The notes below the pieces were generated by a model. The model was not told the origin of the DNA, ran no database searches, and was given only the letters and a program-made list of their open reading frames with translations. A stretch of DNA of 64,000 nucleotides from the IMG/VR virus record IMGVR_UViG_3300028388_003891, positions 5,513 to 69,512 of that record; one strand, written 5' to 3'. Source of the DNA: a virus. Taxonomy: Duplodnaviria > Heunggongvirae > Uroviricota > Caudoviricetes. Shown in pieces: positions 26,155 through 61,602 of the stretch; position 1 is the first letter of the stretch, and each line of letters begins with the position of its first letter. A program made the position numbers and the translations under genes.

Positions 26155-26265
26155 ACAACGAGTTTTCTATCTGTTGTTCCACGCAATGTGGGTTTTAGAT
26201 AGCCAAGGTACAGTCCGCCCTTGCTTCTTTCTACGGACGTTAAGCTAAACCCGAAAGGAGATTAC

Positions 26266-29468: not shown

Positions 29469-29576
29469 CACAATCTGGTAGTGCGCTGAACTCTAAATTC
29501 ATGAGATAACGGTTCAAATCCGTTCGCAGTCACCATATATACACCGCAATGACTAATGACTTTAAGGGAAACAAAC

Positions 29577-30799: not shown

Positions 30800-31104
30800 A
30801 TACGAGCAGTTGAACAACTACCCACCTCGATTTTAGACATTGGAACCAGAGTCCCAATGACGGACAAACCAGTCGCGGCACAGGCGATCAATATTGTTGT
30901 AGAACTGCGTGAAGCTCGAGATCATGAACTGAAACGATTGACTCGTCGCCAGTTGCAAAGTATCATTGATAAAGAAACTGCCCGACAAACACAGCGGAGG
31001 ACTACATCTGATGGCTATTGGCGAAGATCGTGATCCAATCTATGGAATAGTGTACGCATCTTGTACGCTAGTGATTGGCGGCCCGATTCTTGCATTTGCT
31101 GGTG

Positions 31105-31452
31105 GGGCGTTCCATTAACGAAATTCGATGAAGCACAACGAACGGTGCTAAGGACGGGGGTTCGATTCCCCCCACCTCCACCAAAAAGCATACTCTTCCC
31201 GCGAAAGCGGTGCGATGGAAGTCGTCATAATCAACCAAGGGAGTATGCTTTTTGATGGGGGTGCACTGGCTTCGACTTGGACTTAATAGCTTGTGTGGAG
31301 AATAGGTGCGGAAGCTACCTTAAACGCAACAAAGTAAAAAAGTGACGCAGCTAATGATGCTGTGTATGATGTGGCTCTAGCAGCCTGATCATACTGGGGA
31401 TTGACTATCCTTATTATCCAATAAGTCCGGGCAGGTTAAACCTGCCCGTTTT
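31105..31452 (+). ncRNA. ssrA: two-piece (circularly permuted) tmRNA gene (ssrA): acceptor piece ending CCA at 31183, excised stem-loop 31184-31256, coding piece from 31257 with tag ORF 31347-31388, terminator 31429-31452
   Basis: GGGGG-TTCGATT-CCCCC T-arm + CACCTCC-A-CCA; perfect 12-bp inverted repeat AAAAGCATACTC/GAGTATGCTTTT; GGGGGTG...GGCTTCGAC 5' piece with G3 opposite U70; tag GCAGCTAATGATGCTGTGTATGATGTGGCTCTAGCAGCCTGA = AANDAVYDVALAA; 5' boundary approximate. Confidence 0.75.
31429..31452 (+). terminator. rho-independent terminator ending tmRNA coding piece
   Basis: GGGCAGG-TTAAA-CCTGCCC + GTTTT. Confidence 0.75.
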
Positions 31453-31553
31453 AGTTTTCTAATTGTAAACGGCCCCTTCTGTTGAATTACGTTTGATAGA
31501 TACGTGACTGTATGGTTGCTGAAAAACAGCAATCCTTTGAAATGGAGATCATT

Positions 31554-50113: not shown

Positions 50114-50169
50114 GTCCCCCTGATGAGTCTTATCGGAGACGAAACGCAAAGCTAAAGTAGCGTCGGGGA
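50114..50169 (+). ncRNA. type I hammerhead ribozyme motif (HHR-1)
   Basis: GUCCCC(stem I 3')-CUGAUGA-GUCU/UAUCGG/AGAC(stem II)-GAAA-CGC...GCG(stem III)-UC^-GGGGA(stem I 5'); predicted cleavage after C50164. Confidence 0.6.
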
Positions 50170-50275
50170 AGAGAGAAGAAAATCTTCCCCCAGCTACCAC
50201 GAACTGTGAGCGTGGGAATCGCGGAGGGCAACAAGTCTCTTGTGACGGAAACCGATGCGACTTATCACAAATTAA

Positions 50276-50361
50276 CGCGGGATATACAAGCGGTCAACGT
50301 GATAGGGCTCATAACCCTATACCTTAGTGTTTCGTGGGTTCGAATCCCACTCCCGCAACCA
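50276..50361 (+). tRNA. initiator tRNA-fMet-like (CAU), atypical 14-nt variable region
   Basis: acceptor CGCGGGA/TCCCGCA with C1-A72 mismatch, anticodon stem-loop GGG-CTCATAA-CCC, 3' end CCCGCAACCA identical to E. coli tRNAfMet; T-arm GTGGG-TTCGAAT-CCCAC. Confidence 0.55.
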
Positions 50362-50992: not shown

Positions 50993-51044
50993 CTGCCCTG
51001 ATGAGTCTTACAGGAGACGAAACGCGCTGATAGCGCGTCGGCAG
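50993..51044 (+). ncRNA. type I hammerhead ribozyme (HHR-2) whose cleavage site is the 5' end of the downstream tRNA
   Basis: CUGCC-CUGAUGA-GUCU/UACAGG/AGAC-GAAA-CGCGC/UGAUA/GCGCG-UC^-GGCAG; cleavage after C51039. Confidence 0.75.
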
Positions 51045-51121
51045 AGTACACCCGTAACTGGTAGCGGCCCGCACTGTAACTGCGCATAACGTTGGGGGTT
51101 CGAATCCCTCCTCTGCCACCA
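51040..51121 (+). tRNA. tRNA with GUA anticodon (Tyr-type), 8-nt variable region, irregular D region
   Basis: acceptor GGCAGAG/CTCTGCC, anticodon stem CGCA/TGCG loop CTGTAAC, T-arm GGGGG-TTCGAAT-CCCTC, A73, CCA. Confidence 0.5.
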
Positions 51122-51136
51122 AATTGAAAGGAGTTT

Positions 51137-51499
51137 GTGATGAATAAACGCTTCACGATTATCGCTGCGATAGTGATAGGCATCGGTAGTTTGTTTACTC
51201 TTTACGAAGGGGTCAAAGCTATCCGGCAGTATGCGTGGAACCATGAGGTTGTTGACGCTCGTCCCGTCGGTCCCGTTCGCACTGAGCAACGATTGATCGA
51301 ATGTGAGTATACAGGAATATGCTCTCGCTTTGATCCGCTGAACGGCGAGATGAGAACGGGGTTATCATCCTTTTGTCGCGGTCACCGTCCGGTCGTTGCT
51401 CGCATACAAGATGTGCAAGAGACGCTTCGTAACGGCGAGCAACGAATTCGAGAAGAGATAATGAGTCGCACAATCGTCGAGGGCGTAGCATGCAGATGA
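51137..51499 (+). CDS. membrane-anchored protein (120 aa)
   Basis: N-terminal TM helix. Confidence 0.4.
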   Translation: MMNKRFTIIAAIVIGIGSLFTLYEGVKAIRQYAWNHEVVDARPVGPVRTEQRLIECEYTGICSRFDPLNGEMRTGLSSFCRGHRPVVARIQDVQETLRNGEQRIREEIMSRTIVEGVACR

Positions 51500-51533
51500 G
51501 CAAAGACGTAACCAAAGAGATTCTCAAAACGAA

Positions 51534-51607
51534 AGGGGATTAGCATAACGGTAGTGCGTCGGACTCTGACTCCGAATGTGGTGGTTCAATTCCACCATCC
51601 CCCGCCA
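51534..51607 (+). tRNA. tRNA-Gln (CUG)
   Basis: acceptor aGGGGAT/ATCCCCC, anticodon stem TCGGA/TCCGA loop CTCTGAC, T-arm GGTGG-TTCAATT-CCACC, G73, CCA. Confidence 0.65.
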
Positions 51608-51612
51608 ACAAA

Positions 51613-51688
51613 GCAGCTTTAGCAATGATGGTTCATGCGCTGGCCTGAAGTCCCAGATATCTCGGTTCGATCCCGAGGAGCTGCACCA
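51613..51688 (+). tRNA. tRNA-Phe (GAA)
   Basis: acceptor GCAGCTT/GAGCTGC, loop CTGAAGT, T-arm CTCGG-TTCGATC-CCGAG, A73, CCA. Confidence 0.65.
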
Positions 51689-51708
51689 AACAACAAAGGC
51701 GATGAGCA

Positions 51709-51969
51709 ATGTATGCAGTTCCCGAACGGTTTGATGTCCAGGCGCTTGGACGCACGATTACAGTGGTCTCCACGGCGAAGCCAGAAGATGGCGTGTATCA
51801 ATTGTGCGTAGAGATAGATGGCGAAATGGTACAGCTCGATACCTCGGTGCGAATAGAAGGACAGGAACTCTCATATATGATTCACGAGGAGGGGTATCAC
51901 GACATCTTGTTCCGTCTGGTTGCAGACGCAATTGAAGAACAGATGGGCCGTTCAGAAGCAAACAGCTAA
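51709..51969 (+). CDS. hypothetical protein (86 aa)
   Basis: ORF in tRNA array. Confidence 0.4.
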   Translation: MYAVPERFDVQALGRTITVVSTAKPEDGVYQLCVEIDGEMVQLDTSVRIEGQELSYMIHEEGYHDILFRLVADAIEEQMGRSEANS

Positions 51970-51970
51970 A

Positions 51971-52048
51971 GCGCCTGTAGCCCAATCAGGTAGAGGCAGC
52001 GGCTTTAAACCCCGTTCAGTGTGGGTTCGATCCCCTCCAGGCGCACCA
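51971..52048 (+). tRNA. class-I tRNA with UAA anticodon (Leu-type anticodon, 5-nt variable loop)
   Basis: acceptor GCGCCTG/CAGGCGC, anticodon stem GCGGC/CCCGT (1 mismatch) loop TTTAAAC, T-arm GTGGG-TTCGATC-CCCTC, A73, CCA. Confidence 0.5.
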
Positions 52049-52082
52049 ACATCGGTTGACGACAACACGCTGGTAAGGGACA

Positions 52083-52301
52083 ATGAGTCTTTTGGAGGAT
52101 AAAACAATGGGTGAACGAACAATTCCTGCTCCAACAGAGCATCACTTCAGCTTTGCGACGGCAGTGGTCGATAATATGGTTCGCAACTGTGGAATCACAA
52201 GCTCCGGCGAAGACATCGATAAACTTAAAGACGCGATGGTTTCGTGCATTGCCCACCGTGACGCAGAGATCCTGTGGCTGCGCAAACTGGTGCATCCGTG
52301 A
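52083..52301 (+). CDS. hypothetical protein (72 aa)
   Basis: ORF. Confidence 0.3.
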   Translation: MSLLEDKTMGERTIPAPTEHHFSFATAVVDNMVRNCGITSSGEDIDKLKDAMVSCIAHRDAEILWLRKLVHP

Positions 52302-52603
52302 TGTTGTACACTCCAGATAGATGGGTGTTGCTGGAAATCGAGCCGTACAAGTTGTACAAAGTGCTGGCGGGGTGGAATGGTGGTTATCTTTCGGCGGACG
52401 AATGGCGGATCAACTCCGGCATTAAAAGTCTGACCGATGAAGGCCAATATTTCACAGCAACAGGACACAGCGGCAGTGAATACCGTTTGTACAAGGATGC
52501 AGAGGGGTTCAATAAGATCAGCGCAGATGTGCTGTACAACCTCCAGAATGCTTATCCCCATATCGTCACTGTTTCTGCTGAACAATATTTTACGCGGGTG
52601 TAG
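52274..52603 (+). CDS. hypothetical protein (109 aa)
   Basis: ORF; 3' end overlaps tRNA-Gly start. Confidence 0.4.
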   Translation: MAAQTGASVMLYTPDRWVLLEIEPYKLYKVLAGWNGGYLSADEWRINSGIKSLTDEGQYFTATGHSGSEYRLYKDAEGFNKISADVLYNLQNAYPHIVTVSAEQYFTRV

Positions 52604-52669
52604 CTCAGTTGGTAGAGCATCTGGTTGCCAATCAGAAGGCCGTGGGATCGTGACCCATCACCCGCTCCA
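52594..52669 (+). tRNA. tRNA-Gly (GCC)
   Basis: acceptor GCGGGTG/CACCCGC, D-arm GCTCAGTTGGTAGAGC, loop TTGCCAA, T-loop ATCGTGA, CCA. Confidence 0.75.
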
Positions 52670-52803
52670 AATTCTTGAATATGGAATGAGGAGAACTTAG
52701 TGAACAAACTTCGTAATCCGTACGATTCAAGGCAAGCGCCATCTGGGCGCGAATCTAAACAAAACGAACAACCCAGCCCATACGACGCGAGTGGTGTTCG
52801 TCG

Positions 52804-53100
52804 TTGGCTCGAACGGAAAACGAGGCGAAAACATCAAAAGTGAGATTGCTAATTTTTGCAGCGGTGCTGCTTTGTACAGCCTGCTCGACTACGCCGCCAG
52901 GAGTGACAAAACAGTGCGTACGTTACGAGTACAACAACGACTGGGAAATTGTTCAAATGGGCGGCTTCTACAGAGTAAAAGCGCCTCAGATGATATGCCG
53001 AAAATGGATGTATTATGAAAGTAGCAGTGACCGGTACGCGCCACGGAATGACTCGTCCACAAAGACAAATGGTGATGTCGACGATCCACCAGTAGACTGA
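52804..53100 (+). CDS. putative secreted protein/lipoprotein (98 aa)
   Basis: signal-peptide-like N-terminus ...LLIFAAVLLCTAC. Confidence 0.4.
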   Translation: MARTENEAKTSKVRLLIFAAVLLCTACSTTPPGVTKQCVRYEYNNDWEIVQMGGFYRVKAPQMICRKWMYYESSSDRYAPRNDSSTKTNGDVDDPPVD

Positions 53101-53101
53101 G

Positions 53102-53470
53102 TTGCATCAAGGATGCTGCAAAGGCGTTGATCGCGAATGCTACCTAATGGCAGCAGACAATCCAGACTACGACATAACGATTTACTCGTACCCACCAATT
53201 AATGATCACTATGCGATCAAGTGCCTCGGTCATGTCAATTACAAGCCACAGCCGTTCCTTGTACGCGATCGTGCTCTGGTAGATGCGGCGGATATTCTGC
53301 TATCGATGCCACTTACTGATTACGAGACATTTCGCAGTGGTACATGGTACACTACACGCTATGCTCTGCAGCAGGACAAGCCTGTCGTACTGATTCAACC
53401 TAACGGCACTAGTGTGCCTGCTGATGAAATTGAGAGATACTTACTACCTGGAAAATGGGGTGAAAGGTAA
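53102..53470 (+). CDS. hypothetical protein (122 aa)
   Basis: ORF. Confidence 0.4.
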   Translation: MHQGCCKGVDRECYLMAADNPDYDITIYSYPPINDHYAIKCLGHVNYKPQPFLVRDRALVDAADILLSMPLTDYETFRSGTWYTTRYALQQDKPVVLIQPNGTSVPADEIERYLLPGKWGER

Positions 53471-54435
53471 TGGAATTCATCAAATACAGCTCGATTGAGA
53501 ATCACTACCGTGAGAAGGTTGTCGACTGGTATCGTGAAAATGGATTAGAAAACGTCGGATGGATCTTGACGGAGAAGATCCATGGCGCTAACTTTTCTTT
53601 CTGGTGCAACAGCAGCGAAGTCAAGGTCGCATCTCGTAACCAATGGGTCGACAGCACATTCTATAGCTGTCAGGACATCATCGACGCGTACACGCCCGTT
53701 GTGCTAGAGCTCGCTACTTTCTTCCCCAACAGCACTGTAGCTGTGTATGGGGAGCTGTACGGACCCGGTATTCAGAAGGGGGTCAATTACGGCGACAAAA
53801 AAGATTTCGTTGCCTTCGACATTCGAGTTGACGGATACTTCCTAGATCGTAATAAAGTACATGTGTACATCGCTGGTGCAAACCAGCTGACATTACAAAA
53901 GCACGGTCAGAGGTCCACCTTGATGGACGTTGTCCCTATTGTTGGCTCGACAGTGTCACTAACACAAGTGCTTGAGTTTGATAACGAGTTTGTATCTGTG
54001 CTTGGCCGTCTCAATGGTGTCGACGACGATGCCAACCTTGCTGAGGGATTCATTGCAACGCCAGTCGGCAAAGCGTACCAACGCATTGGCAGCGACCGTG
54101 TGATCCTCAAATCGAAAGGTGAAAAGTGGACAGAGAAAAGCAAGAAGGTAAAGACGCCTCGTGCTCCTGTTACTGAGCACCCACTGACATCAACGGTTGA
54201 GCAGTATGTCAACACCAACCGTGTCGATGCTGTCACAAGTAAGATGGGCCCGTTGACTCCAAAGGACTTTGGTCGGATCATTAGGGCTGTTTGTGATGAT
54301 GTCATTGATGACATGGTGAAGGACGGTGATGTTCGTAGCTGCTGGCGCGATGACGAAGAGACGAAAGACCTTGGCAAGGTTGTTAACAAAGTGGTAGTGC
54401 CTTTCCTCAAGAAAGAGCTGCTACCGACGTTGTAA
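53470..54435 (+). CDS. RNA ligase 2 (T4 Rnl2/gp24.1-like)
   Basis: KYSSIENHY and adenylation motif KIHGANFSF match T4 Rnl2 N-terminus; nucleotidyltransferase plus C-terminal domain size. Confidence 0.75.
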   Translation: MEFIKYSSIENHYREKVVDWYRENGLENVGWILTEKIHGANFSFWCNSSEVKVASRNQWVDSTFYSCQDIIDAYTPVVLELATFFPNSTVAVYGELYGPGIQKGVNYGDKKDFVAFDIRVDGYFLDRNKVHVYIAGANQLTLQKHGQRSTLMDVVPIVGSTVSLTQVLEFDNEFVSVLGRLNGVDDDANLAEGFIATPVGKAYQRIGSDRVILKSKGEKWTEKSKKVKTPRAPVTEHPLTSTVEQYVNTNRVDAVTSKMGPLTPKDFGRIIRAVCDDVIDDMVKDGDVRSCWRDDEETKDLGKVVNKVVVPFLKKELLPTL

Positions 54436-54451
54436 CACGCTTGGCAGTGTA

Positions 54452-54495
54452 GGCGGGTGAGGAACCACGAACTGGATCCAGTGACCCCGCCGTTT
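54452..54495 (+). terminator. terminator-like hairpin after RNA ligase
   Basis: GGCGGG...CCCGCC stem with long loop followed by GTTTTAT. Confidence 0.4.
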
Positions 54496-54505
54496 TATAA
54501 ATTAC

Positions 54506-54582
54506 GTCCCTATAGGTTAACAGGTTAGACCTTCAGGCTTTCAACCTGGCAGAGTGGGGTTCGAGTCCCCCTAGGGACACCA
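54506..54582 (+). tRNA. tRNA-Glu (UUC)
   Basis: acceptor GTCCCTA/TAGGGAC, stem TCAGG/CCTGG loop CTTTCAA, T-loop TTCGAGT, A73 CCA. Confidence 0.75.
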
Positions 54583-54585
54583 AAT

Positions 54586-54686
54586 TACGTGCTTGGTGTA
54601 ATGCGTAGCATACCAAGACCGAACTGCGCGAACGCAGATGTAGGCAATCAAAATGGGAGGTCCAGGTTCGAATCCTGGGGCACGTA
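54586..54686 (+). ncRNA. ~100-nt structured RNA with tRNA T-arm and 8-bp terminal helix but no anticodon arm (tRNA-like / Y-RNA-like candidate)
   Basis: terminal helix TTACGTGC/GCACGTAA, internal hairpins CTTGGT..ACCAAG and CTGCG-CGAA-CGCAG, 3' T-arm CCAGG-TTCGAAT-CCTGG. Confidence 0.3.
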
Positions 54687-54695
54687 ACTAATAAA

Positions 54696-54772
54696 CTGGG
54701 TATAGGGCAGTCTGGTAGCCTACCTCCCTTGGAAGGAGGATGTCGATGGTTCAAATCCATCTACCCAGACCA
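54696..54772 (+). tRNA. tRNA-Pro (UGG)
   Basis: acceptor CTGGGTA/TACCCAG (C1-G72), stem CCTCC/GGAGG loop CTTGGAA, T-arm GATGG-TTCAAAT-CCATC, CCA. Confidence 0.75.
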
Positions 54773-54924
54773 ATTTTGGCTTGTACGCAAGCGGTGACGG
54801 AAGCAGCTTGCAGAATGTGTTGAACGTCAGATGTGGGTAATACTAGAATCGCTATCTAGAACTAAGACATAGCCACGATGCCGGAGATCCGTGGGGTGCG
54901 TCGTGGCGGCCAAAATTCAACAGA

Positions 54925-55000
54925 GGTGCCGTAGCTTAACGGGGAAAGGCTCAGACTGTCAATCTGAGAGATACGGGTTCGAGACCCGTCGGTACCGCCA
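54925..55000 (+). tRNA. tRNA-Asp (GUC)
   Basis: acceptor GGTGCCG/CGGTACC, stem TCAGA/TCTGA loop CTGTCAA, T-arm ACGGG-TTCGAGA-CCCGT, G73 CCA. Confidence 0.75.
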
Positions 55001-55018
55001 AACTAAAAGGAGAAGAAA

Positions 55019-55267
55019 ATGGACGACAACCAGTTGTATTCCATCAGTTGTATTAGCTTCTTTTTTACGATATGCGTCATAGCGTTTACAATCGGATCTT
55101 GTAATACCAGAGAAGCAGAGCAGGAAACGGAGAGGTATCGAATCGAAATGGATCGATACGATCCTGGTTCGATTGACTATTTGGAAGCGCAGTGTATCGA
55201 GAAGTCGGGACTCCATGCTTCGATACTTCGGTTCTGTGAAGAAGCGCTGGAGAAAGCAAACGGATAA
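55019..55267 (+). CDS. putative lipoprotein (82 aa)
   Basis: hydrophobic N-terminus with lipobox-like TIGSC. Confidence 0.4.
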   Translation: MDDNQLYSISCISFFFTICVIAFTIGSCNTREAEQETERYRIEMDRYDPGSIDYLEAQCIEKSGLHASILRFCEEALEKANG

Positions 55268-55268
55268 T

Positions 55269-55345
55269 GCGCCCCTACGCAAATTGGCAAAGCGGCTGGC
55301 TTTAGAAGCCGGTGTTTCTCGGTTCGAGTCCGAGGGGGCGTACCA
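55269..55345 (+). tRNA. class-I tRNA with UAG anticodon (Leu-type anticodon)
   Basis: acceptor GCGCCCC/GGGGCGT, stem CTGGC/GCCGG loop TTTAGAA, var TGTTT, T-arm CTCGG-TTCGAGT-CCGAG, A73 CCA. Confidence 0.55.
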
Positions 55346-55351
55346 AACAAT

Positions 55352-55428
55352 GGGTCGTTAGCTTAATTGAGTAAAGCAGCAGGCTTTTAACCTGCCAGAT
55401 CTGAGTTCGAGTCTCAGGCGGCCTACCA
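55352..55428 (+). tRNA. tRNA-Lys (UUU)
   Basis: acceptor GGGTCGT/GCGGCCT (G-U rich), stem GCAGG/CCTGC loop CTTTTAA, T-arm CTGAG-TTCGAGT-CTCAG, A73 CCA. Confidence 0.7.
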
Positions 55429-55541
55429 AATCAATATGGCGCTAACTCGTGCCCCGACCACCAGATCGGACTACAATGCTGGTAGGCACCTAGGCCTATA
55501 CTCGCCCCAGTCGAGTGAACGTGTGACAGTTACGACGACAC

Positions 55542-55653
55542 GACCATAATGGAACTGGGACAAATTCTTGGCATGTAGCATTGAAGGTAATGCGCCGCAC
55601 TGTTAATGCGGAGGAATCCGGTTCGATCCCGGACGTGCCAGCCAATTATGGTC
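55542..55653 (+). repeat. 9-bp inverted repeat GACCATAAT / ATTATGGTC bracketing tRNA-Asn (putative precursor-processing stem)
   Basis: 55542-55550 and 55645-55653 are perfect reverse complements; the 3' arm starts right after CCA. Confidence 0.5.
55569..55644 (+). tRNA. tRNA-Asn (GUU)
   Basis: acceptor TGGCATG/CGTGCCA, stem CCGCA/TGCGG loop CTGTTAA, T-arm TCCGG-TTCGATC-CCGGA, G73 CCA. Confidence 0.75.
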
Positions 55654-55910
55654 CGTTGCATTGGGATGCATCCCTTTGCTGATAAACGAAGGGGAGTAAG
55701 TCGGGCACGCGACCGACCGGAAGCCGGATATAAAGCTGTCATCTGACATGGTGGCAGTCGGACCGCCATACAATGGGGCGAAGTGACGTAGACGCGCGTT
55801 AAGAACAGCCGATCTGAGCCCCACCATAAATAGGTCAACACACTACAGGTTGACAACATGATAGCTTTCAAGGACCATATTCAAGAATCAAGAACAGCTA
55901 AAGTTTTAAC

Positions 55911-55984
55911 GCCCGGTTAGCTCAATGGGAGAGCTACTGCCTTACAAGCAGAGGACGGTGGTTCGATTCCATCACTGGGTACCA
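55911..55984 (+). tRNA. tRNA-Val (UAC)
   Basis: acceptor GCCCGGT/ACTGGGT, D-arm GCTCAATGGGAGAGC, loop CTTACAA, T-arm GGTGG-TTCGATT-CCATC, A73 CCA. Confidence 0.6.
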
Positions 55985-56012
55985 AGAATAGTGGAGGGCT
56001 AATGCCCATCTG

Positions 56013-56082
56013 CGAGCTCCACAACGACTGGCAAATGGCGCTGGGGTGTCCCGGAACGGAGGTTCGATTCCTCCCAGTTCGT
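56013..56082 (+). other. tRNA-like element with T-arm and acceptor-like helix but a tetraloop hairpin in place of an anticodon arm (pseudo-tRNA or tRNA-like RNA)
   Basis: CGAGCTC ... CTGGG-GTGT-CCCGG ... GGAGG-TTCGATT-CCTCC-CAGTTCG; too short (70 nt) for a tRNA. Confidence 0.3.
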
Positions 56083-56245
56083 ACTACAACACCGGTTAGT
56101 GATACGAGTAACGATTAAGTTACAGTTGTGGAGCGGTACTATTAGGAATGGCTACAGCATCTAATTACTACGCAGCCAAAGAAAGCCATTCCGTAACAAT
56201 TAAGAGTGTTTGCAGCAACTAATCTTCCATGCTAAGGACGAGGCC

Positions 56246-56271
56246 GCAGGTTCGAATCCTGCTCCCCGCCA
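56246..56271 (+). other. orphan tRNA 3' half (T-arm + acceptor 3' strand) fused directly upstream of tRNA-Ala 5' strand
   Basis: GCAGG-TTCGAAT-CCTGC-TCCCCGCC then ATCGAC then GGTGGGGG; CCCCGCC/GGTGGGG can pair as a hairpin; no complementary 5' acceptor strand upstream. Confidence 0.3.
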
Positions 56272-56277
56272 TCGACG

Positions 56278-56400
56278 GTGGGGGTAGCTCAGCGGTAGAG
56301 CGCGTAGAAATACACTCTGTTTATTTTTGGGGGTGCCGTATGGGACGGACTTAGCCCTTGCAAGGCTGATGGTCGGGATCGTTACCCGATACCTCCACCA
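56278..56400 (+). tRNA. tRNA-Ala (UGC)-like gene with ~48-nt insertion or duplicated 5' half
   Basis: canonical 5' acceptor+D-arm GTGGGGG-TA-GCTCAGCGGTAGAGC (56278-56301), then 48 nt including a second possible 5' strand GGGGGTG (56329-56335, gives G3-U70), then anticodon arm TTAGCC-CTTGCAA-GGCTGA, T-arm TCGGG-ATCGTTA-CCCGA, 3' TACCTCCACCA. Confidence 0.4.
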
Positions 56401-56406
56401 AACATT

Positions 56407-56484
56407 CACCGTGTAGCTCAGTCTGGTCAGAGCGTTCGCTTTGGAAGCGTAGGGCCACTGGTTCGAATCCAGTCATGGTGACCA
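56407..56484 (+). tRNA. tRNA-Pro (UGG), second copy
   Basis: acceptor CACCGTG/CATGGTG (C1-G72), D-arm GCTCAGTCTGGTCAGAGC, loop TTTGGAA, T-arm ACTGG-TTCGAAT-CCAGT, A73 CCA. Confidence 0.6.
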
Positions 56485-56664
56485 AATTGGTTCGTGGACT
56501 ACCGTAAGACGCCTACGTTTAGGTGCCGCGACCCCACGAACAAGTCGTGGGACGACAAGCGCGAATGTGTTATATACTTCACACGGACGGTGGCGTCTGT
56601 TGTTGTGAAAGTCGTTAACTAGCGTTGAGCTGATCACTCTAGTCCCGCGGCGGCGCTATTAAAT

Positions 56665-56740
56665 GGGTCGTTAGCTTAACTGGCAAAGCTCCGGTCTCCA
56701 AAACCGGCAGATCGCGGTTCGAAGCCGTGGCGGCCCGCCA
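56665..56740 (+). tRNA. tRNA-Trp (CCA)
   Basis: acceptor GGGTCGT/GCGGCCC, stem CCGGT/ACCGG loop CTCCAAA, T-arm CGCGG-TTCGAAG-CCGTG, G73 CCA. Confidence 0.75.
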
Positions 56741-56817
56741 AACAGCTCATAAGGTGAGCAGTTGCGACTGGTACATATTCGCCGCCACGCCATATTTTCT
56801 CTTGCCGGAAGATAAAC

Positions 56818-56893
56818 GCTCCTAAAGCATTGCTGGCCGATGCACGGGTCTTGTAAGCCTGAGAACTCAGTTCGATTCTGAGTAGGAGCACCA
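56818..56893 (+). tRNA. tRNA-Thr (UGU)
   Basis: acceptor GCTCCTA/TAGGAGC, A8A9, D-arm GCAT..ATGC, stem CGGGT/GCCTG loop CTTGTAA, T-arm CTCAG-TTCGATT-CTGAG, A73 CCA. Confidence 0.7.
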
Positions 56894-56897
56894 ACAT

Positions 56898-56973
56898 GCC
56901 CTCAAAGCATTGCCGATTGATGCGCGAGTTTCGTAAACTTGATAACTGCGTTTGATTCGCAGTGAGGGCTCCA
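56898..56973 (+). tRNA. tRNA-Thr (CGU)
   Basis: acceptor GCCCTCA/TGAGGGC, paralogous to previous, stem CGAGT/ACTTG loop TTCGTAA, T-arm CTGCG-TTTGATT-CGCAG, U73 CCA. Confidence 0.7.
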
Positions 56974-57022
56974 ATTGAGCAACTGCAGAATGTCTGCGGT
57001 GATATACAGGTAGGACGCATAA

Positions 57023-57099
57023 GCCGCAGTGACCCAATTGGCAGAGGTGCCAGTTTCAAAAGCTGGATGTTGTCGGTTCGACTCCGACCTGCGGTACCA
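57023..57099 (+). tRNA. class-I tRNA with CAA anticodon (Leu-type anticodon)
   Basis: acceptor GCCGCAG/CTGCGGT, stem CCAGT/GCTGG loop TTCAAAA, var ATGTT, T-arm GTCGG-TTCGACT-CCGAC, A73 CCA. Confidence 0.55.
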
Positions 57100-57184
57100 A
57101 ACTACGACGTCGAGCTCAAGATAACACCGGGGACCGGCGTGTGGGAAGGCTATTTGGAATACGGACTGCTTATAAAATGGTTAT

Positions 57185-57259
57185 AGGGATGTAGCGCAAT
57201 TGGTAGAGCAGCGGAGTTTGATTCCGCAGATTCCGGTTCGAATCCGGACATCCCTTCCA
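57185..57259 (+). tRNA. tRNA-Gln (UUG)
   Basis: acceptor AGGGATG/CATCCCT, D-arm GCGCAATTGGTAGAGC, stem GCGGA/TCCGC loop GTTTGAT, T-arm TCCGG-TTCGAAT-CCGGA, U73 CCA. Confidence 0.7.
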
Positions 57260-57347
57260 AGGACAGTAAAATGAACGTACTACGAGAGTACGAACACCAC
57301 AACAAGCTGGTACTCAGTATTTTAATGGATGCTTTAGCTGATCCACC

Positions 57348-57422
57348 GGGCCGGTAGCTTAATGGTAGAGCAGTGCCCTCATAAGGCAACGGTTGTGGGT
57401 TCGATTCCCTCCCGGCCCACCA
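57348..57422 (+). tRNA. tRNA-Met (CAU; elongator Met or Ile2-type)
   Basis: acceptor GGGCCGG/CCGGCCC, D-arm GCTTAATGGTAGAGC, loop CTCATAA, T-arm GTGGG-TTCGATT-CCCTC, A73 CCA. Confidence 0.7.
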
Positions 57423-57517
57423 GTTACGTAACGCAGGCCGCCCCTGCGACACTTGGGTAGCGCCCAAAACCCCTCTCGAGGACTAGAGAGGCAAAACCAA
57501 AGGTCAACCAATTCAAT
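57423..57517 (+). other. spacer with three consecutive hairpins between tRNA genes
   Basis: CGCAGG-ccgccc-CTGCG, TTGGG-tagcg-CCCAA, CCTCTC-gaggacta-GAGAGG. Confidence 0.4.
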
Positions 57518-57593
57518 GCCCTCGTAGCTTAACGGATAGAGCGACTCGCTACGAACGAGTTAGGTGGGAGTTCAATTCTCTCCGAGGGTGCCA
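57518..57593 (+). tRNA. tRNA-Arg (ACG)
   Basis: acceptor GCCCTCG/CGAGGGT, stem ACTCG/CGAGT loop CTACGAA, T-arm GGGAG-TTCAATT-CTCTC, G73 CCA. Confidence 0.8.
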
Positions 57594-57739
57594 AACGTAG
57601 TTCGTGTGAGCAACCGGTTGTCTGCAGACACCAACGGGAAACGAACTGGCCGGGACAGTGAGATGCTCACACATCACTGATCCACCAATTATGGGGTGAG
57701 GGCGCGCGACTAAGGAATACCTGATCCCCACCATACAAC

Positions 57740-57815
57740 GACGCGATGGCTCGAGTGGTTAGGCCGCCGCCTGCAAAGCGGAAGAATGTCGGTTCGATTC
57801 CGACTCGCGTCTCCA
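57740..57815 (+). tRNA. tRNA-Cys (GCA)
   Basis: acceptor GACGCGA/TCGCGTC, loop CTGCAAA, T-arm GTCGG-TTCGATT-CCGAC, U73 CCA. Confidence 0.7.
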
Positions 57816-57821
57816 AACAAT

Positions 57822-57915
57822 GGAAGGTAATGCAGTGCCGATGGTGGCGCGACTGGCCTTGAAAACCAGGTCCCGGCTAAAACCGGGTGGGGTTCGACTC
57901 CTCTGCCTTCCGCCA
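57822..57915 (+). tRNA. tRNA-Ser (UGA), class II
   Basis: acceptor GGAAGGT/GCCTTCC, loop CTTGAAA, long variable arm hairpin CCCGG-CTAAAA-CCGGG, T-loop TTCGACT, G73 CCA. Confidence 0.7.
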
Positions 57916-57932
57916 ACATAGGAGATGGCAAC

Positions 57933-58190
57933 ATGGAAAAGTTTGCAGTGCTTGCCATTACGGCAGGCTTAATCGGTTTGGGGCTAATCCTCATCGCCCT
58001 TGCAATGTCGAAAATTTCAATCCCAGAATGGTTCTTCCGCACACAGGATGGTGTGCGTATTGGAGTGCGTACAGACGTGTTGGGCAACACGAAAGTGCGA
58101 GTTGACTTTGCTGACAAAACAACACGCGCGCTGATCTACAAACGAGCCAAAGCTGTTAACGACCGTGTGACTATGAGTGCACTGCGTTGA
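57933..58190 (+). CDS. small membrane protein (85 aa)
   Basis: AGGAGA RBS; one TM helix. Confidence 0.45.
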   Translation: MEKFAVLAITAGLIGLGLILIALAMSKISIPEWFFRTQDGVRIGVRTDVLGNTKVRVDFADKTTRALIYKRAKAVNDRVTMSALR

Positions 58191-58340
58191 CCTGACAGCC
58201 GGGATTGGAGACAATAAGTACTGATTTGGGCCATTTCGAAAATTGCTGAATTGCTATGTGTGGCCCCGTTTTGCGGCTATATAGAAAGAAGACCGAGGAG
58301 CATAAGCGTAAAATCGCTGAATCTCTACGGAATAGAAAAC

Positions 58341-58417
58341 GCAGGACTGGTGTTTAACGGCTAGCATCTCTGGCTTCCAACCAGAAGGTAGGAGTTCGAG
58401 TCTCCTGTTCTGCTCCA
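58341..58417 (+). tRNA. tRNA-Gly (UCC)
   Basis: acceptor GCAGGAC/GTTCTGC, stem TCTGG/CCAGA loop CTTCCAA, T-arm AGGAG-TTCGAGT-CTCCT, U73 CCA. Confidence 0.8.
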
Positions 58418-58437
58418 AATAATGTCGAGGACAGATC

Positions 58438-58776
58438 GTGGATAATCTGGTTGGAAACCGTTACAATCTGTATGGTGTGTGGGACGACCACATCAAACTG
58501 AACGATACCGTGTACCGTATCGACGTAGACCCGTTTGATGGCTATCGATCCTACCTCAATGGGGTTACGGCGGTACTGCAGACGCCAGAGATGGTGTTTT
58601 CGACGTTGCCCATAGCTGAAATCGTGGTGCACGAAGATCGCACGGAGTGCAAAAACGGATACATCTTGAAAGACGACCTAGGTCACGTGTGGCTTGAGCT
58701 CGGTACCGATCACCACGACAGTTGGTATCCGTATGTGTACATGCGGTATAATCCCAAAGAACCAGATAACGTATGA
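58438..58776 (+). CDS. hypothetical protein (112 aa, GTG start)
   Basis: ORF with GAGGA RBS inside tRNA array. Confidence 0.45.
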   Translation: MDNLVGNRYNLYGVWDDHIKLNDTVYRIDVDPFDGYRSYLNGVTAVLQTPEMVFSTLPIAEIVVHEDRTECKNGYILKDDLGHVWLELGTDHHDSWYPYVYMRYNPKEPDNV

Positions 58777-58777
58777 T

Positions 58778-58855
58778 GGTGGTCGTAGCTCAATTGGTTA
58801 GAGCGTCGGTTTGTGACACCGAAGGCCGAGGGTTCGATCCCCTCCGATCACCCCA
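58778..58855 (+). tRNA. tRNA-His (GUG) with encoded G-1
   Basis: G-1 + GTGGTCG/CGATCAC + C73, D-arm GCTCAATTGGTTAGAGC, loop TTGTGAC, T-arm GAGGG-TTCGATC-CCCTC, CCA. Confidence 0.75.
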
Positions 58856-58931
58856 AATTAACGACGACTGCAGCCCGATATACAGAGAAGAATAAATACT
58901 GTCCCACAATTCAATTTATTAACACCGATGA

Positions 58932-59008
58932 GCCCTCGTAGCTTAACTGGATAGAGCAACGGAATTCTACTCCGTTTGATGTGGGTTCGAATCCTACCGA
59001 GGGTGCCA
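58932..59008 (+). tRNA. tRNA-Arg (UCU)
   Basis: acceptor GCCCTCG/CGAGGGT, stem ACGGA/TCCGT loop ATTCTAC, T-arm GTGGG-TTCGAAT-CCTAC, G73 CCA. Confidence 0.75.
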
Positions 59009-59010
59009 AT

Positions 59011-59298
59011 TTGAAATACGATCTGCCAGCATTATATGATGAGCTGAGCCCAAAACAAAGACGAGACGTCCGCCTACAATATGTTGAGCAACAACAAGGC
59101 AAGTGCTATTGGTGCAACCATGACCTCAACCAGGATCCTCCAATTTCGATACTTAATGAATGGATCAACTGGGACCTATTTCCCGACGGGTTCCGAAAAC
59201 ATCCGATCCATCTGCAGCACGACCACGATACGGGACTGACGGAGGGCGCCGTGCATATGAGATGTAATGCCTATATGTGGCAGTATCGTGGACGGTAA
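59011..59298 (+). CDS. endonuclease VII-like (T4 gp49 family) nuclease
   Basis: GKCYWCNHDLN...HLQHDHDTGLTEGAVHMRCNAYM aligns with T4 endo VII GKCLICQREL...HLDHDHELNG...CNLCNAAEG; start uncertain (TTG 59011 right after tRNA; ORF track GTG 58981 lies inside the tRNA). Confidence 0.65.
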   Translation: MKYDLPALYDELSPKQRRDVRLQYVEQQQGKCYWCNHDLNQDPPISILNEWINWDLFPDGFRKHPIHLQHDHDTGLTEGAVHMRCNAYMWQYRGR

Positions 59299-59305
59299 TA
59301 TATCT

Positions 59306-59345
59306 GTATAGTAGAATTTGGGCTAATATACCGATATAGTAGAAT
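59306..59345 (+). repeat. two direct copies of TATAGTAGAATT (promoter-like)
   Basis: 59306-59317 and 59334-59345, just upstream of a tRNA trio. Confidence 0.5.
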
Positions 59346-59347
59346 TA

Positions 59348-59422
59348 TGGCTTCATAGCTCAATGGCAAGAGCACTCGGCCGATAACCGGGAGATCTAAG
59401 TTCGATTCTTAGTGAAGCTACC
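59348..59422 (+). tRNA. tRNA-Ile (GAU)
   Basis: acceptor GGCTTCA/TGAAGCT, stem CTCGG/CCGGG loop CCGATAA, T-arm CTAAG-TTCGATT-CTTAG, A73 CCA. Confidence 0.7.
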
Positions 59423-59427
59423 AAACA

Positions 59428-59502
59428 CGCCCCTGTAGTACAACCGGTAGTACACCACCTTGGTAAGGTGGAGAACGTGGGTCGGGACCACGCTGGGGCA
59501 CC
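59428..59502 (+). tRNA. tRNA-Thr (GGU), atypical T-loop
   Basis: acceptor GCCCCTG/CTGGGGC (one U-U), D-stem GTAC/GTAC, stem CCACC/GGTGG loop TTGGTAA, T-arm CGTGG-GTCGGGA-CCACG, A73 CCA. Confidence 0.6.
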
Positions 59503-59509
59503 AAACTAA

Positions 59510-59587
59510 AGCCTGAGTACCCCAATTGGCAGAGGGGCGAGATCGAGAATCTCGTTAGGTGTGGGTTCGAGTCCCACCTCAGGTACC
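59510..59587 (+). tRNA. class-I tRNA with GAG anticodon (Leu-type), C at position 33
   Basis: acceptor GCCTGAG/CTCAGGT, D-stem CCCC/GGGG, stem CGAGA/TCTCG loop TCGAGAA, T-arm GTGGG-TTCGAGT-CCCAC, A73 CCA. Confidence 0.45.
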
Positions 59588-59869
59588 AACGCGTGCAACC
59601 TGTGTTACGTTGCAAACGTGCACACGGTCATCCACCTTGATGCGCAATTGCGCTCCGACGTTGATCTGCTGGTCATTCGTATCGAGCTCGACGTCACTAT
59701 TTGGACGCAGCTTTAACGTGCAATCAGATTCGACGACCCAGTCGCCTCGTCGGTCAGTCTGAACGAGTACGACTGACGGGGCAAACCACACTGAGCGAAT
59801 CTCCGTTGGGTGTGGTGCGGCAAAGGCCGCTGTTGACAAAAGTGCTAATGCTAGTAGAAGGTATTTCAC
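59579..59869 (-). CDS. small secreted protein (signal peptide MKYLLLALALLSTAAFA)
   Basis: clear signal peptide with AFA cleavage site; minus strand; 3' end overlaps tRNA end. Confidence 0.4.
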   Translation of the reverse strand: MKYLLLALALLSTAAFAAPHPTEIRSVWFAPSVVLVQTDRRGDWVVESDCTLKLRPNSDVELDTNDQQINVGAQLRIKVDDRVHVCNVTQVARVGT

Positions 59870-60390: not shown

Positions 60391-60482
60391 GGAAGGTTGC
60401 CAGAGAGGTCGATTGGGGCTCCCTGCTAAGGAGTTGACCCTCTTATGAGGGTCCGAGAGTTCGAATCTCTCACCTTCCGCCA
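60391..60482 (+). tRNA. tRNA-Ser (GCU), class II
   Basis: acceptor GGAAGGT/ACCTTCC, stem CTCC/GGAG loop CTGCTAA, variable arm ACCCTC-TTATG-AGGGT, T-arm GAGAG-TTCGAAT-CTCTC, G73 CCA. Confidence 0.75.
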
Positions 60483-61429: not shown

Positions 61430-61602
61430 GAGAGACTGTACAGCAGTTCTTGCAACGTGGAGGGCGCATCACCAAGTGCCCAAGTTCGGCTGATCGTGAC
61501 ACTACATGGCGTCGTGGTTATAAGCGAGATGCAGTGCTACACCGCCTCGGTGGTTCATTCGGCGACATGATGCCCTTCGCGCGCAAGCCGGGCAAGCAAT
61601 AG

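What the first reader, a model, noticed from the sequence alone, without database searches (positions are those of the whole stretch)
51040..59587. Leu-type and Tyr-type anticodons are carried by class-I (short variable arm) tRNAs
Four tRNAs with anticodons UAA (51971), UAG (55269), CAA (57023) and GAG (59510) fold by eye as canonical cloverleaves with 4-6 nt variable loops and A73. The GUA tRNA (51040) has an 8-nt variable region. No long-arm tRNA-Leu or tRNA-Tyr was found in the array, whereas both tRNA-Ser genes have normal long variable arms. Bacterial Leu and Tyr tRNAs are normally class II. Either this phage uses structurally unusual Leu/Tyr tRNAs (A73 is the main E. coli LeuRS determinant), or these tRNAs are charged by something else (decoding manipulation), or some are pseudogenes. 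The GAG tRNA also has C instead of U at position 33.
Basis: seen in the sequence. Interest (0 to 1): 0.55.

Follow-up and report, generated by a model that had tools for sequence, protein, structure and literature searches.

The report
Short-arm leucine tRNAs in a phage
This T4-like phage carries four leucine tRNAs that lack the usual long extra arm; they are real and look functional, but the type is common in phages and already described in one bacterium, so this is an under-appreciated ordinary feature, not a new decoding trick.

Summary
ARAGORN and the Rfam tRNA model both call tRNA-Leu UAA (51971-52048), UAG (55269-55345), CAA (57023-57099) and GAG (59511-59588). Each has a 74-75 nt core plus an encoded CCA, a 5-6 nt variable loop and A73. 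tRNA-Tyr(GUA) at 51040-51121 has an unpaired 8-9 nt variable region. No long-arm Leu or Tyr gene exists in the window, and both Ser tRNAs keep long arms.

The four Leu tRNAs are not anomalies. They keep a bacterial tRNA-Leu core: 3-bp D stem, D loop NAAUUGGYARA (one base longer in UAA), U8, A14, A15:U48, G18G19, A20a, A73. Only the arm is missing.

The same type is widespread:
- One D-arm motif pulled out 78 tRNAs from IMG/VR; all are Leu and nearly all are short.
- In a sample chosen without regard to Leu, 15 of 50 phage tRNA-Leu are short, against 1 of 34 Ser.
- Cultured Shigella phage Sf13 has three, annotated by tRNAscan-SE.
- Many Actinomycetota carry solitary chromosomal copies.
- Type I tRNALeu is published for Streptomyces coelicolor.

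Across 141 unique sequences the stems are 98% paired with abundant compensatory changes. The most likely reading is functional leucine acceptors charged by host LeuRS; charging is inferred, not shown. Recoding and pseudogene readings are not supported.

A hammerhead ribozyme ends exactly at the tRNA-Tyr 5' end.

The parts
51971..52048 (+). tRNA-Leu(UAA), class I: 75-nt core plus CCA, 12-nt D loop CAAUCAGGUAGA, variable loop UCAGU, A73, G1-C72. Mismatches C31xC39 and U50xU64.
   Evidence: ARAGORN; Rfam 49.0 bits; parsing.
55269..55345 (+). tRNA-Leu(UAG), class I: 74-nt core plus CCA, D arm CGC-AAAUUGGCAAA-GCG, variable loop UGUUU, A73, G1.U72.
   Evidence: ARAGORN; Rfam 53.9 bits.
57023..57099 (+). 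tRNA-Leu(CAA), class I: 74-nt core plus CCA, D arm ACC-CAAUUGGCAGA-GGU, variable loop AUGUU, A73, G1.U72.
   Evidence: ARAGORN; Rfam 54.7 bits. It finds 62 GenBank phage records; those listed are mostly annotated tRNA-Leu.
59511..59588 (+). tRNA-Leu(GAG), class I: 75-nt core plus CCA, D arm CCC-CAAUUGGCAGA-GGG, variable loop UUAGGU, A73, G1.U72, anticodon loop U32-C33-GAG-A-A.
   Evidence: ARAGORN; Rfam 48.5 bits. C33 recurs in 3 of 7 class-I Leu(GAG) in the 74-nt set.
51040..51121 (+). tRNA-Tyr(GUA) with the variable region reduced to 8-9 unpaired nt: 79-nt core plus CCA, G1-C72, A73, 3-4 bp D stem preceded by a 5-nt linker.
   Evidence: Rfam 40.4 bits with alignment; ARAGORN at relaxed threshold; the MFE structure is a cloverleaf. 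Homolog L243 has the same D arm but a 13-nt arm.
50993..51039 (+). Type I hammerhead ribozyme motif in the tRNA-Tyr leader. The core is CUGAUGA...GAAA...GUC, with predicted cleavage after C51039, exactly at the tRNA 5' end. Stem I pairs CUGCC with G1-G5 of the tRNA (51040-51044).
   Evidence: Regex scan. Sub-threshold Rfam Hammerhead_1 (18.3 bits) and RAGATH-1 (19.4 bits) alignments. The MFE structure is a three-stem junction, z = -2.98.
57822..57915 (+). tRNA-Ser(UGA) with a normal long variable arm (comparator).
   Evidence: ARAGORN at relaxed threshold; Rfam tRNA-Sec model 41.1 bits.
60391..60482 (+). tRNA-Ser(GCU) with a normal long variable arm (comparator).
   Evidence: ARAGORN.
53470..54435 (+). 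Rnl2-type RNA ligase gene inside the tRNA array (context only).
   Evidence: Pfam RNA_ligase 1.2e-17 and T4_Rnl2_C 2.9e-13.

Best explanation
The four genes are functional phage-encoded leucine tRNAs of the class-I (type I) tRNA-Leu kind. They have a bacterial tRNA-Leu body in which a 5-6 nt loop replaces the long variable arm. That body comprises U8-A14, a 3-bp D stem, an 11-12 nt D loop with A15, G18G19 and A20a, the A15:U48 Levitt pair, a standard T loop and A73.

The anticodons UAA, CAA, UAG and GAG together read all six Leu codons. They sit in an array that covers all 20 amino acids.

The most likely mechanism is leucylation by the host LeuRS. In E. coli-type systems LeuRS reads A73 and the D/T elbow with A15:U48, not the anticodon or the arm. 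This step is inferred, not shown.

Arm loss is tolerated for Leu because the synthetase does not need the arm. It is only partly tolerated for Tyr and not tolerated for Ser.

The tRNA-Tyr belongs to a phage tRNA-Tyr family. Its arm has shrunk to 8-9 unpaired nt, but G1-C72, A73 and GUA are kept. A hammerhead in its leader is positioned to cut out its 5' end.
For: Gene calls and structures.

Family conservation: in 141 unique 74-nt class-I Leu sequences (87 viral, 52 from bacterial genomes, 2 from the window), U8, A14, A15, G18, U48 and A73 are 100% conserved and G19 and A20a 99%. The 29 sequences lacking the search motif show the same pattern.

Covariation: 98.4% of stem cells are standard pairs, against 65% in shuffles. 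Every one of the 20 pairs shows two or more pair types, and most show many compensatory changes.

Leu-specific D arm: the D-arm signature matches 26 of 35 long Leu and 9 of 15 short Leu, but about 5% of other tRNAs.

Prevalence: 78 of 78 motif-bearing IMG/VR tRNAs are Leu, and 76 of them have a 74-75 nt core. In the Leu-unbiased sample, 15 of 50 Leu are 77 nt or shorter, against 1 of 34 Ser.

Public annotation: Shigella phage Sf13 has three 78-79 nt tRNA-Leu called by tRNAscan-SE, beside an 88-nt Tyr and 88- and 93-nt Ser. Stenotrophomonas phage DLP_6 has a 74-nt Leu-CAA.

Codon use: all six Leu codons are used, at 10-23% each.

Literature: E. coli leucine identity rests on A73, A15-U48, G18G19 and A20a, and arm-less minimal tRNA-Leu remain active (PMC9976931). 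Type I tRNALeu(CAA) is leucylated in S. coelicolor (PMC6614811).
Against: No charging data exist for any phage class-I tRNA-Leu.

In the only biochemical study, E. coli LeuRS did not leucylate the S. coelicolor type I tRNALeu(CAA). That ability mapped to the leucine-specific domain of the Streptomyces enzyme (PMC6614811). A proteobacterial host LeuRS therefore cannot be assumed to accept these tRNAs.

The host is unknown, and only 64 kb of the phage was seen, so a phage-encoded factor cannot be excluded.

Leu-UAA has two stem mismatches and Leu-GAG has C33.

The tRNA-Tyr scores low and has an irregular D-arm region, so its function is less certain.

The motif-selected part of the family sample is biased for the D loop, though not for U48 or A73.
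Confidence: 0.78

Rival explanations
1. Arm loss is an adaptive counter-defence. Phage tRNA-Leu lacking the arm, and a tRNA-Tyr with a stub, would escape host nucleases or toxins that recognise or cut the variable arm of class II tRNAs. The phage could then keep translating while host class II tRNAs are destroyed. This concerns why the tRNAs are arm-less and is compatible with the best explanation of what they are.
For: [quoted passage not shown] MenT3 depends on the tRNA-Ser variable loop (PMC11541572).

Short Leu appear with at least two different D-arm types and with intermediate 77-78 nt forms. This suggests repeated independent loss.

The array also holds an Rnl2-type RNA ligase, a near-complete tRNA set, and C33 anticodon loops in Leu-GAG and Ile-GAU.
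Against: No defence system known to me targets the tRNA-Leu variable arm specifically.

The pattern Leu > Tyr > Ser fits neutral loss equally well, wherever the synthetase does not need the arm.

Actinomycetota carry the same type as ordinary chromosomal genes. The nearest capsid relative, C48C1, has a class II Leu. All evidence here is circumstantial.
Confidence: 0.2
2. The tRNAs are not substrates of the host LeuRS. They would be charged by a phage-encoded or other enzyme, possibly with another amino acid, or would act as non-translational decoys.
For: E. coli LeuRS failed on the S. coelicolor type I tRNALeu (PMC6614811). The window also has an amber-suppressor tRNA (29459-29535), and TAG is the rarest stop, at 4 of 48 ORFs. 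Some decoding oddity therefore exists in this phage.
Against: No aminoacyl-tRNA synthetase domain turned up among the 30 larger ORFs scanned.

None of the four has G3:U70 or a long arm, so AlaRS and SerRS are excluded on established identity rules. Other synthetases read anticodons that these tRNAs lack.

The Leu determinants are perfectly conserved across 141 sequences. The four are the only Leu tRNAs in an otherwise complete set.
Confidence: 0.07
3. Some or all of the five genes are decaying pseudogenes.
For: Leu-UAA has two stem mismatches. Leu-GAG has C33. Tyr scores only 40.4 bits, with an irregular D-arm region and a C27xC43 mismatch.
Against: All are above the Rfam gathering score, encode CCA and fold as cloverleaves.

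C33 recurs in independent Leu(GAG) genes. A mismatch at 31-39 occurs in 16% of family members.

The tRNA-Tyr is the only Tyr tRNA in the array and has a precisely placed ribozyme.
Confidence: 0.04

Closest known systems
Type I tRNALeu(CAA) of Streptomyces coelicolor (Fan et al. 2019, PMC6614811), and the solitary short tRNA-Leu(UAA/CAA) genes of Actinomycetota
   Same: A short variable loop on a bacterial tRNA-Leu body. The actinomycete genes recovered here carry the same D-arm motif CCAAUUGGCAGAGG, U48 and A73. The S. coelicolor tRNA is shown to be leucylated by its LeuRS.
   Different: Those are single chromosomal genes that coexist with class II isoacceptors. Here all four isoacceptors are class I, they are phage-encoded, and the host is probably a proteobacterium. 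I could not read the S. coelicolor sequence itself, so its D-arm match is inferred from relatives.
Canonical bacterial class II tRNA-Leu (E. coli type)
   Same: 3-bp D stem; 11-nt D loop N13-A14-A15-U-U-G18-G19-Y-A20a-R-A; U8; U48; A73; G1.U72 in some members; Leu anticodons (PMC9976931).
   Different: The long helical variable arm is missing. Positions 9 and 13 are mostly A and C rather than G and G in the main short lineage.
Short tRNA-Leu genes annotated in cultured phages (Ounavirinae such as Shigella phage Sf13; Stenotrophomonas phage DLP_6; Rhodococcus phage Peregrin)
   Same: The same class-I architecture, called tRNA-Leu by tRNAscan-SE. In Sf13 the Tyr and Ser genes remain long, as here.
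   Different: Only 74-82% identical to the window genes. In Sf13 the tRNA-Tyr keeps a full arm (88 nt). DLP_6 mixes class I and class II Leu.
Animal mitochondrial tRNA-Leu (class I)
   Same: Leu anticodon, short variable loop, A73 and A14 as determinants (PMC9976931).
   Different: This rests on my own knowledge plus the review. Mitochondrial tRNAs have reduced, AT-rich D and T loops and a dedicated LeuRS. The phage tRNAs have fully canonical bacterial elbows. S. coelicolor LeuRS does not charge the human mitochondrial tRNA (PMC6614811).
Phage tRNA-Tyr with an altered variable loop that evades Retron-Eco7 PtuAB (T5/SP15)
   Same: A phage-encoded tRNA-Tyr whose variable region differs from the host type (PMC12673091, PMC13096335).
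   Different: There the loop is 5 nt longer than in E. coli, and deleting it abolished rescue. Here the loop is shortened to 8-9 unpaired nt. No functional data exist for this one.

Membership tests
Bacterial tRNA-Leu (LeuRS substrate, E. coli-type identity set) | Discriminator A73 | tested here: met
   All four window genes have A73. It is 100% conserved in 141 family members.
Bacterial tRNA-Leu (LeuRS substrate, E. coli-type identity set) | Tertiary core: U8-A14, A15:U48 Levitt pair, G18G19 placed in an 11-nt D loop on a 3-bp D stem, A20a, and a T loop with U54, U55, C56 and A58 | tested here: met
   Present in all four. Leu-UAA has a 12-nt D loop with GG shifted by one base. Family conservation is 99-100%. 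The identity set is taken from PMC9976931.
Bacterial tRNA-Leu (LeuRS substrate, E. coli-type identity set) | Long variable arm (class II architecture) | tested here: not met
   Variable loops are 5-6 nt. According to PMC9976931 the arm is characteristic but is not an identity element for E. coli LeuRS.
Bacterial tRNA-Leu (LeuRS substrate, E. coli-type identity set) | Actual leucylation by a bacterial LeuRS | not testable with these tools
   This needs an in vitro aminoacylation assay or charged-tRNA sequencing. E. coli LeuRS failed on the S. coelicolor type I tRNA (PMC6614811).
Type I (class I) tRNA-Leu of bacteria and phages | Leu anticodon (NAG/NAA, A35) on a cloverleaf with a 4-6 nt variable loop and a core of about 74-75 nt | tested here: met
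   76 of 78 motif-bearing IMG/VR tRNAs, and 62 of 62 from genomes, have 74-76 nt cores.
Type I (class I) tRNA-Leu of bacteria and phages | Stems maintained by compensatory change across members (evidence of function) | tested here: met
   98.4% of stem cells are standard pairs against 65% in shuffles, with several pair types at every position.
Bacterial class II tRNA-Tyr | G1-C72, A73 and a GUA anticodon (U35) | tested here: met
   Sequence and Rfam alignment. The identity set is taken from PMC9976931.
Bacterial class II tRNA-Tyr | Long helical variable arm (13 nt or more) | tested here: not met
   8-9 unpaired nt. The closest homolog, L243, has 13 nt with a 3-bp stem. Other phage Tyr tRNAs with 9-11 nt exist in L015 and L063.
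Hammerhead ribozyme, type I | Conserved core CUGANGA / GAAA / a cleavage triplet NUH, with three helices | tested here: met
   Both copies match the core. The MFE structure of 50993-51044 is the three-way junction.
Hammerhead ribozyme, type I | Rfam gathering score, and self-cleavage activity | tested here: not met
   Hammerhead_1 scores 18.3 and 26.8 bits against a gathering score of 34. Activity is not testable here.

The most novel reading that the evidence does not exclude
Loss of the class II variable arm in phage tRNA-Leu, and its shortening in this tRNA-Tyr, is a recurrent adaptive escape from host defences that recognise or cleave the variable arm of class II tRNAs. On this reading the array is a defence-proofed translation kit. 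Its parts would be an all-class-I Leu set, a stub-arm Tyr with a ribozyme-made 5' end that does not depend on RNase P, C33 anticodon loops, and an RNA ligase for repair. A corollary is that proteobacterial LeuRS must charge arm-less tRNA-Leu, contrary to the single published test.
Probability: 0.2. Interest if true: 0.7.

Novelty: new member of a known kind. Interest (0 to 1): 0.35.

Why it matters
A 2023 reference review still states that tRNA-Leu carries a long variable arm everywhere except animal mitochondria (PMC9976931). The single bacterial exception in the literature I could search is treated there as special to Streptomyces.

The data here show that arm-less tRNA-Leu are common in phages: about 30% of tRNA-Leu genes in a Leu-unbiased sample. 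They occur in phages of enterobacteria, whose own Leu tRNAs are all class II.

Two questions become directly testable with available phages (Sf13, Felix O1-like phages) and enzymes:
- Does proteobacterial LeuRS charge these tRNAs?
- Does arm loss protect them from defence nucleases that target the variable arm?

For this window the practical outcome is an annotation: four tRNA-Leu and one tRNA-Tyr, with no recoding implied.

Tried and rejected
Looking for close relatives of this phage, to test conservation of the array:
- The search for related loci with the Rnl2-like protein found nothing in IMG/VR.
- The hammerhead pattern found nothing in IMG/VR and one unrelated contig in the metagenomes.
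- Megablast of the array against GenBank phages matched only one tRNA-Gly.

Missed long-arm Leu or Tyr:
- Relaxed ARAGORN gave candidates at 61468-61556 (CUA, 89 nt) and 55984-56084 (101 nt). Both have broken stems, and the first lies in coding sequence. Both were rejected.

An experimental handle:
- T5, whose tRNAs were studied biochemically, has an 85-nt class II tRNA-Leu in the 20-kb stretch examined, so it gives no charging evidence.
- The nearest capsid relative, C48C1, also has class II Leu (85 nt) and an 84-nt Tyr. The short form is therefore not a clade trait.

Other checks:
- A search of E. coli complete genomes with the Sf13 short Leu found nothing. The E-value bar for a 78-nt query in 28 Gb is high, so this is weak evidence.
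- A regex scan of 3.1 Mb of fetched loci found no other hammerhead abutting a tRNA.
- Eight literature searches found no paper on short-arm tRNA-Leu in phages or on natural hammerhead-tRNA fusions. The library is incomplete, so absence there is not proof.

Full report
**What is there.** The window is part of a T4-like myovirus. It encodes a gp20 portal, a gp23 capsid protein, a tail sheath, UvsW, UvsX and a family B polymerase. It has no close relative in GenBank phages. The best capsid match is Phage C48C1 at 64% identity, followed by Methylophilales, Stenotrophomonas, Pelagibacter and Sinorhizobium T4-like phages. A circularly permuted tmRNA points to an alphaproteobacterial, betaproteobacterial or cyanobacterial host; that inference rests on the known distribution of two-piece tmRNAs.

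Between about 50.2 and 60.5 kb lies an array of about 32 tRNA genes, all on the + strand. Every one whose 3' end I read encodes CCA, and the array covers all 20 amino acids.

**Check of the observation.** ARAGORN and the Rfam tRNA model agree on four tRNA-Leu genes:

| Anticodon | Coordinates | Rfam bits |
|---|---|---|
| UAA | 51971-52048 | 49.0 |
| UAG | 55269-55345 | 53.9 |
| CAA | 57023-57099 | 54.7 |
| GAG | 59511-59588 | 48.5 |

- Parsed by hand, the cores are 74-75 nt and the variable loops are UCAGU, UGUUU, AUGUU and UUAGGU.
- All four have A73, and three have G1.U72.
- The GUA tRNA at 51040-51121 scores 40.4 bits in Rfam, and ARAGORN finds it only at a relaxed threshold.
- Its variable region is 8-9 unpaired nt.
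- Both Ser tRNAs have long helical arms.
- Relaxed scans of both strands found no long-arm Leu or Tyr gene, and the two extra long candidates have broken stems.

**What the Leu tRNAs are.** Each has a 3-bp D stem. Three have an 11-nt D loop of the form N13-A14-A15-U-U-G18-G19-Y-A20a-R-A; Leu-UAA has one extra base. This is the D arm of ordinary bacterial class II tRNA-Leu. The class II Leu genes found in phage contigs read UG-GYG-GAAUUGGYAGA-CRC. In a control set, this D-arm signature matched 26 of 35 long Leu and 9 of 15 short Leu, but only about 5% of other tRNAs.

The last base of every variable loop is U, which gives the A15:U48 Levitt pair. According to the 2023 identity review, E. coli LeuRS depends on A73, A15-U48, G18G19 and A20a. 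It does not depend on the anticodon or the long arm, and tRNA-Leu variants lacking the arm stay active (PMC9976931). The four genes therefore keep every determinant known for that system and lack only the dispensable arm.

**How common this is.**
The 78 tRNAs that contain it are all tRNA-Leu, and 76 have a 74-75 nt core.
- That sample is biased, so I fetched 120 further IMG/VR loci with a generic D-arm motif unrelated to Leu.
- In this control sample, 15 of 50 tRNA-Leu are 77 nt or shorter, against 1 of 34 tRNA-Ser. Three of 15 tRNA-Tyr are short; these are 73 nt and sit in loci with few tRNAs.
- The window's Leu-CAA finds 62 GenBank phage records, and those listed are mostly annotated tRNA-Leu.
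- Shigella phage Sf13 (Ounavirinae) has three tRNA-Leu of 78-79 nt including CCA, predicted by tRNAscan-SE. Its Tyr is 88 nt and its Ser genes are 88 and 93 nt, which is the same pattern as here.
- Stenotrophomonas phage DLP_6 has one short and one long Leu.
- In bacterial genomes the motif marks 62 tRNAs, all Leu of 74-76 nt. Most are solitary genes, and among the loci whose titles were listed nearly all are Actinomycetota such as Nocardia, Rhodococcus, Gordonia, Mycobacterium and Arthrobacter relatives.
- One such tRNA, the type I tRNALeu(CAA) of Streptomyces coelicolor, has been characterised and is leucylated by its LeuRS (PMC6614811).

**Evidence of function.** I analysed 141 unique 74-nt members:
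- U8, A14, A15, G18, U48 and A73 are invariant.
- G19 and A20a are 99% conserved.
- The same holds in the 29 sequences that lack the search motif.
- 98.4% of stem cells are standard pairs, against 65% after shuffling partners.
- Every stem position shows several pair types.

This is purifying selection on a working tRNA. The phage uses all six Leu codons at 10-23% each. The four anticodons together read all of them, and they are the only Leu tRNAs in a complete set.

**Why Leu, and only partly Tyr.** Short forms are frequent for Leu, rare or partial for Tyr and almost absent for Ser. This ordering matches how much each synthetase relies on the arm:
- SerRS needs the arm.
- For TyrRS the review lists A73, U35 and the 1-72 pair. 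That bacterial TyrRS also contacts the arm is from my own knowledge.
- E. coli LeuRS does not need the arm (PMC9976931).

Short Leu genes come with at least two D-arm types. One carries A9 and C13. The other looks like class II, UG-RYG-GAAUUGGYAUA-CRY. Intermediates of 77-78 nt with a mini-hairpin also exist. This suggests repeated loss rather than a single origin; it is an inference, since no tree was built.

**The tRNA-Tyr.**
- It keeps G1-C72, A73 and GUA.
- Its D arm (CCG-UAACUGGUAG-CGG) matches a tRNA-Tyr in IMG/VR contig 3300045988_065173. That tRNA has a normal 13-nt arm, so the stub here is a derived state.
- Other phage tRNA-Tyr with 9-11 unpaired nt exist.
- Whether a bacterial TyrRS accepts it is open.

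**Caveat on charging.** In the only biochemical study, E. coli LeuRS did not leucylate the S. coelicolor type I tRNA. The ability to do so mapped to the leucine-specific domain of the Streptomyces enzyme (PMC6614811). Phages of Shigella, Salmonella and Erwinia nevertheless carry conserved class-I Leu genes. Either those tRNAs differ in a way that matters, or the published result does not generalise. This is the real open question, and it can be tested directly.

[quoted passage not shown] Arm loss could be an escape from such enzymes. The array also contains an Rnl2-type RNA ligase. C33 occurs in Leu-GAG and Ile-GAU, and it recurs in 3 of 7 other class-I Leu(GAG) and 4 of 23 Ile(GAU), against 24 of 741 tRNAs overall. 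All of this is circumstantial. Neutral loss where the synthetase allows it explains the data equally well, and Actinomycetota use the same type as ordinary genes.

**Side finding.** Two type I hammerhead motifs lie in the array.
- The one at 50993-51039 has a full consensus core. Its stem I is formed with the first five bases of the tRNA-Tyr, and its predicted cut falls after C51039, exactly at the tRNA 5' end.
- Its MFE structure is the three-way junction, with z = -2.98.
- Both copies are below Rfam's gathering score.
- No relative was found elsewhere.
- I found no paper describing a natural hammerhead that makes a tRNA 5' end.

**Verdict.** The feature is real and has an ordinary explanation: four functional class-I tRNA-Leu and one stub-arm tRNA-Tyr. 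The kind is already present in public annotations and has been characterised once in bacteria, so this is a new member of a known kind. The general pattern, that phages often drop the tRNA-Leu arm, seems under-reported and deserves a census and a charging test.

Noticed in passing
window 50993-51044: A type I hammerhead motif with a full consensus core lies in the tRNA-Tyr leader. Stem I pairs with tRNA bases 1-5. The predicted cut after C51039 would make the mature tRNA 5' end without RNase P. It is below the Rfam gathering score, but its MFE structure is the three-way junction (z = -2.98).
   Followed up: partly
window 50115-50199: A second hammerhead (Rfam 26.8 bits, gathering score 34) has a near-identical core and stem II. 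The predicted cut after C50164 would release an RNA starting GGGGAAGA...UCUUCCCC (an 8-bp hairpin) and ending CAGCUACCA. The function of the product is unknown.
   Followed up: partly
window 50276-50361: A tRNA(CAU) has initiator hallmarks: a C1xA72 mismatch and three G-C pairs closing the anticodon stem. It also has a 14-nt unpaired variable region and a 3-bp D stem, which is an odd class II-like Met or fMet tRNA.
   Followed up: no
window 29459-29535: An amber-suppressor tRNA (anticodon CUA, Rfam 65.8 bits) lies far from the main array. TAG is the rarest stop among 48 long ORFs (4, against 29 TAA and 15 TGA). Its amino-acid identity was not determined.
   Followed up: partly
window 31091-31479: A phage-encoded circularly permuted tmRNA (Rfam tmRNA_permuted, 95.2 bits) with the tag peptide DAANDAVYDVALAA. 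It hints at an alphaproteobacterial-type host.
   Followed up: no
window 56238-56306: A permuted tRNA-like element: T arm, acceptor 3' strand, a short loop, acceptor 5' strand, then D arm. It gives a weak match to the Y-RNA-like YrlA model (28.4 bits, gathering score 69). No Ro60 (TROVE) domain turned up among the 30 larger ORFs scanned against Pfam.
   Followed up: partly
window 56329-56400: tRNA-Ala(UGC) with G3:U70 but an aberrant T loop (AUCGUUA) and a 3-bp D stem. It is found only at a relaxed ARAGORN threshold and is missed by Rfam. It is the only Ala tRNA in the array.
   Followed up: no
window 54586-54688 and 55984-56084: Spacers between tRNAs contain further tRNA-like pieces, with good T arms and acceptor-like stems but long insertions. 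They recall the tRNA-like stable RNAs annotated in the phage T5 tRNA region.
   Followed up: no
window 59349-59423 and 59511-59588: Both tRNA-Ile(GAU) and tRNA-Leu(GAG) have C33 instead of the near-universal U33. In the fetched data C33 occurs in 4 of 23 Ile(GAU) and 3 of 7 class-I Leu(GAG), against 24 of 741 tRNAs overall, so it looks like a recurrent variant rather than damage.
   Followed up: partly
window 53470-54435: An Rnl2-type RNA ligase gene (Pfam RNA_ligase plus T4_Rnl2_C) sits inside the tRNA array. This suggests tRNA or RNA repair.
   Followed up: partly
window 25612-26934: QueD-like (PTPS) and GTP cyclohydrolase I genes lie side by side. They are the start of the 7-deazaguanine (preQ0/queuosine) pathway and could serve DNA or tRNA modification.
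   Followed up: no
loci L257, L319, L342 (IMG/VR): Some short tRNA-Leu carry a class II-style D arm (UG-RYG-GAAUUGGYAUA-CRY), and 77-78 nt forms keep a mini-hairpin (CUUCGG). This points to several independent arm losses.
   Followed up: partly
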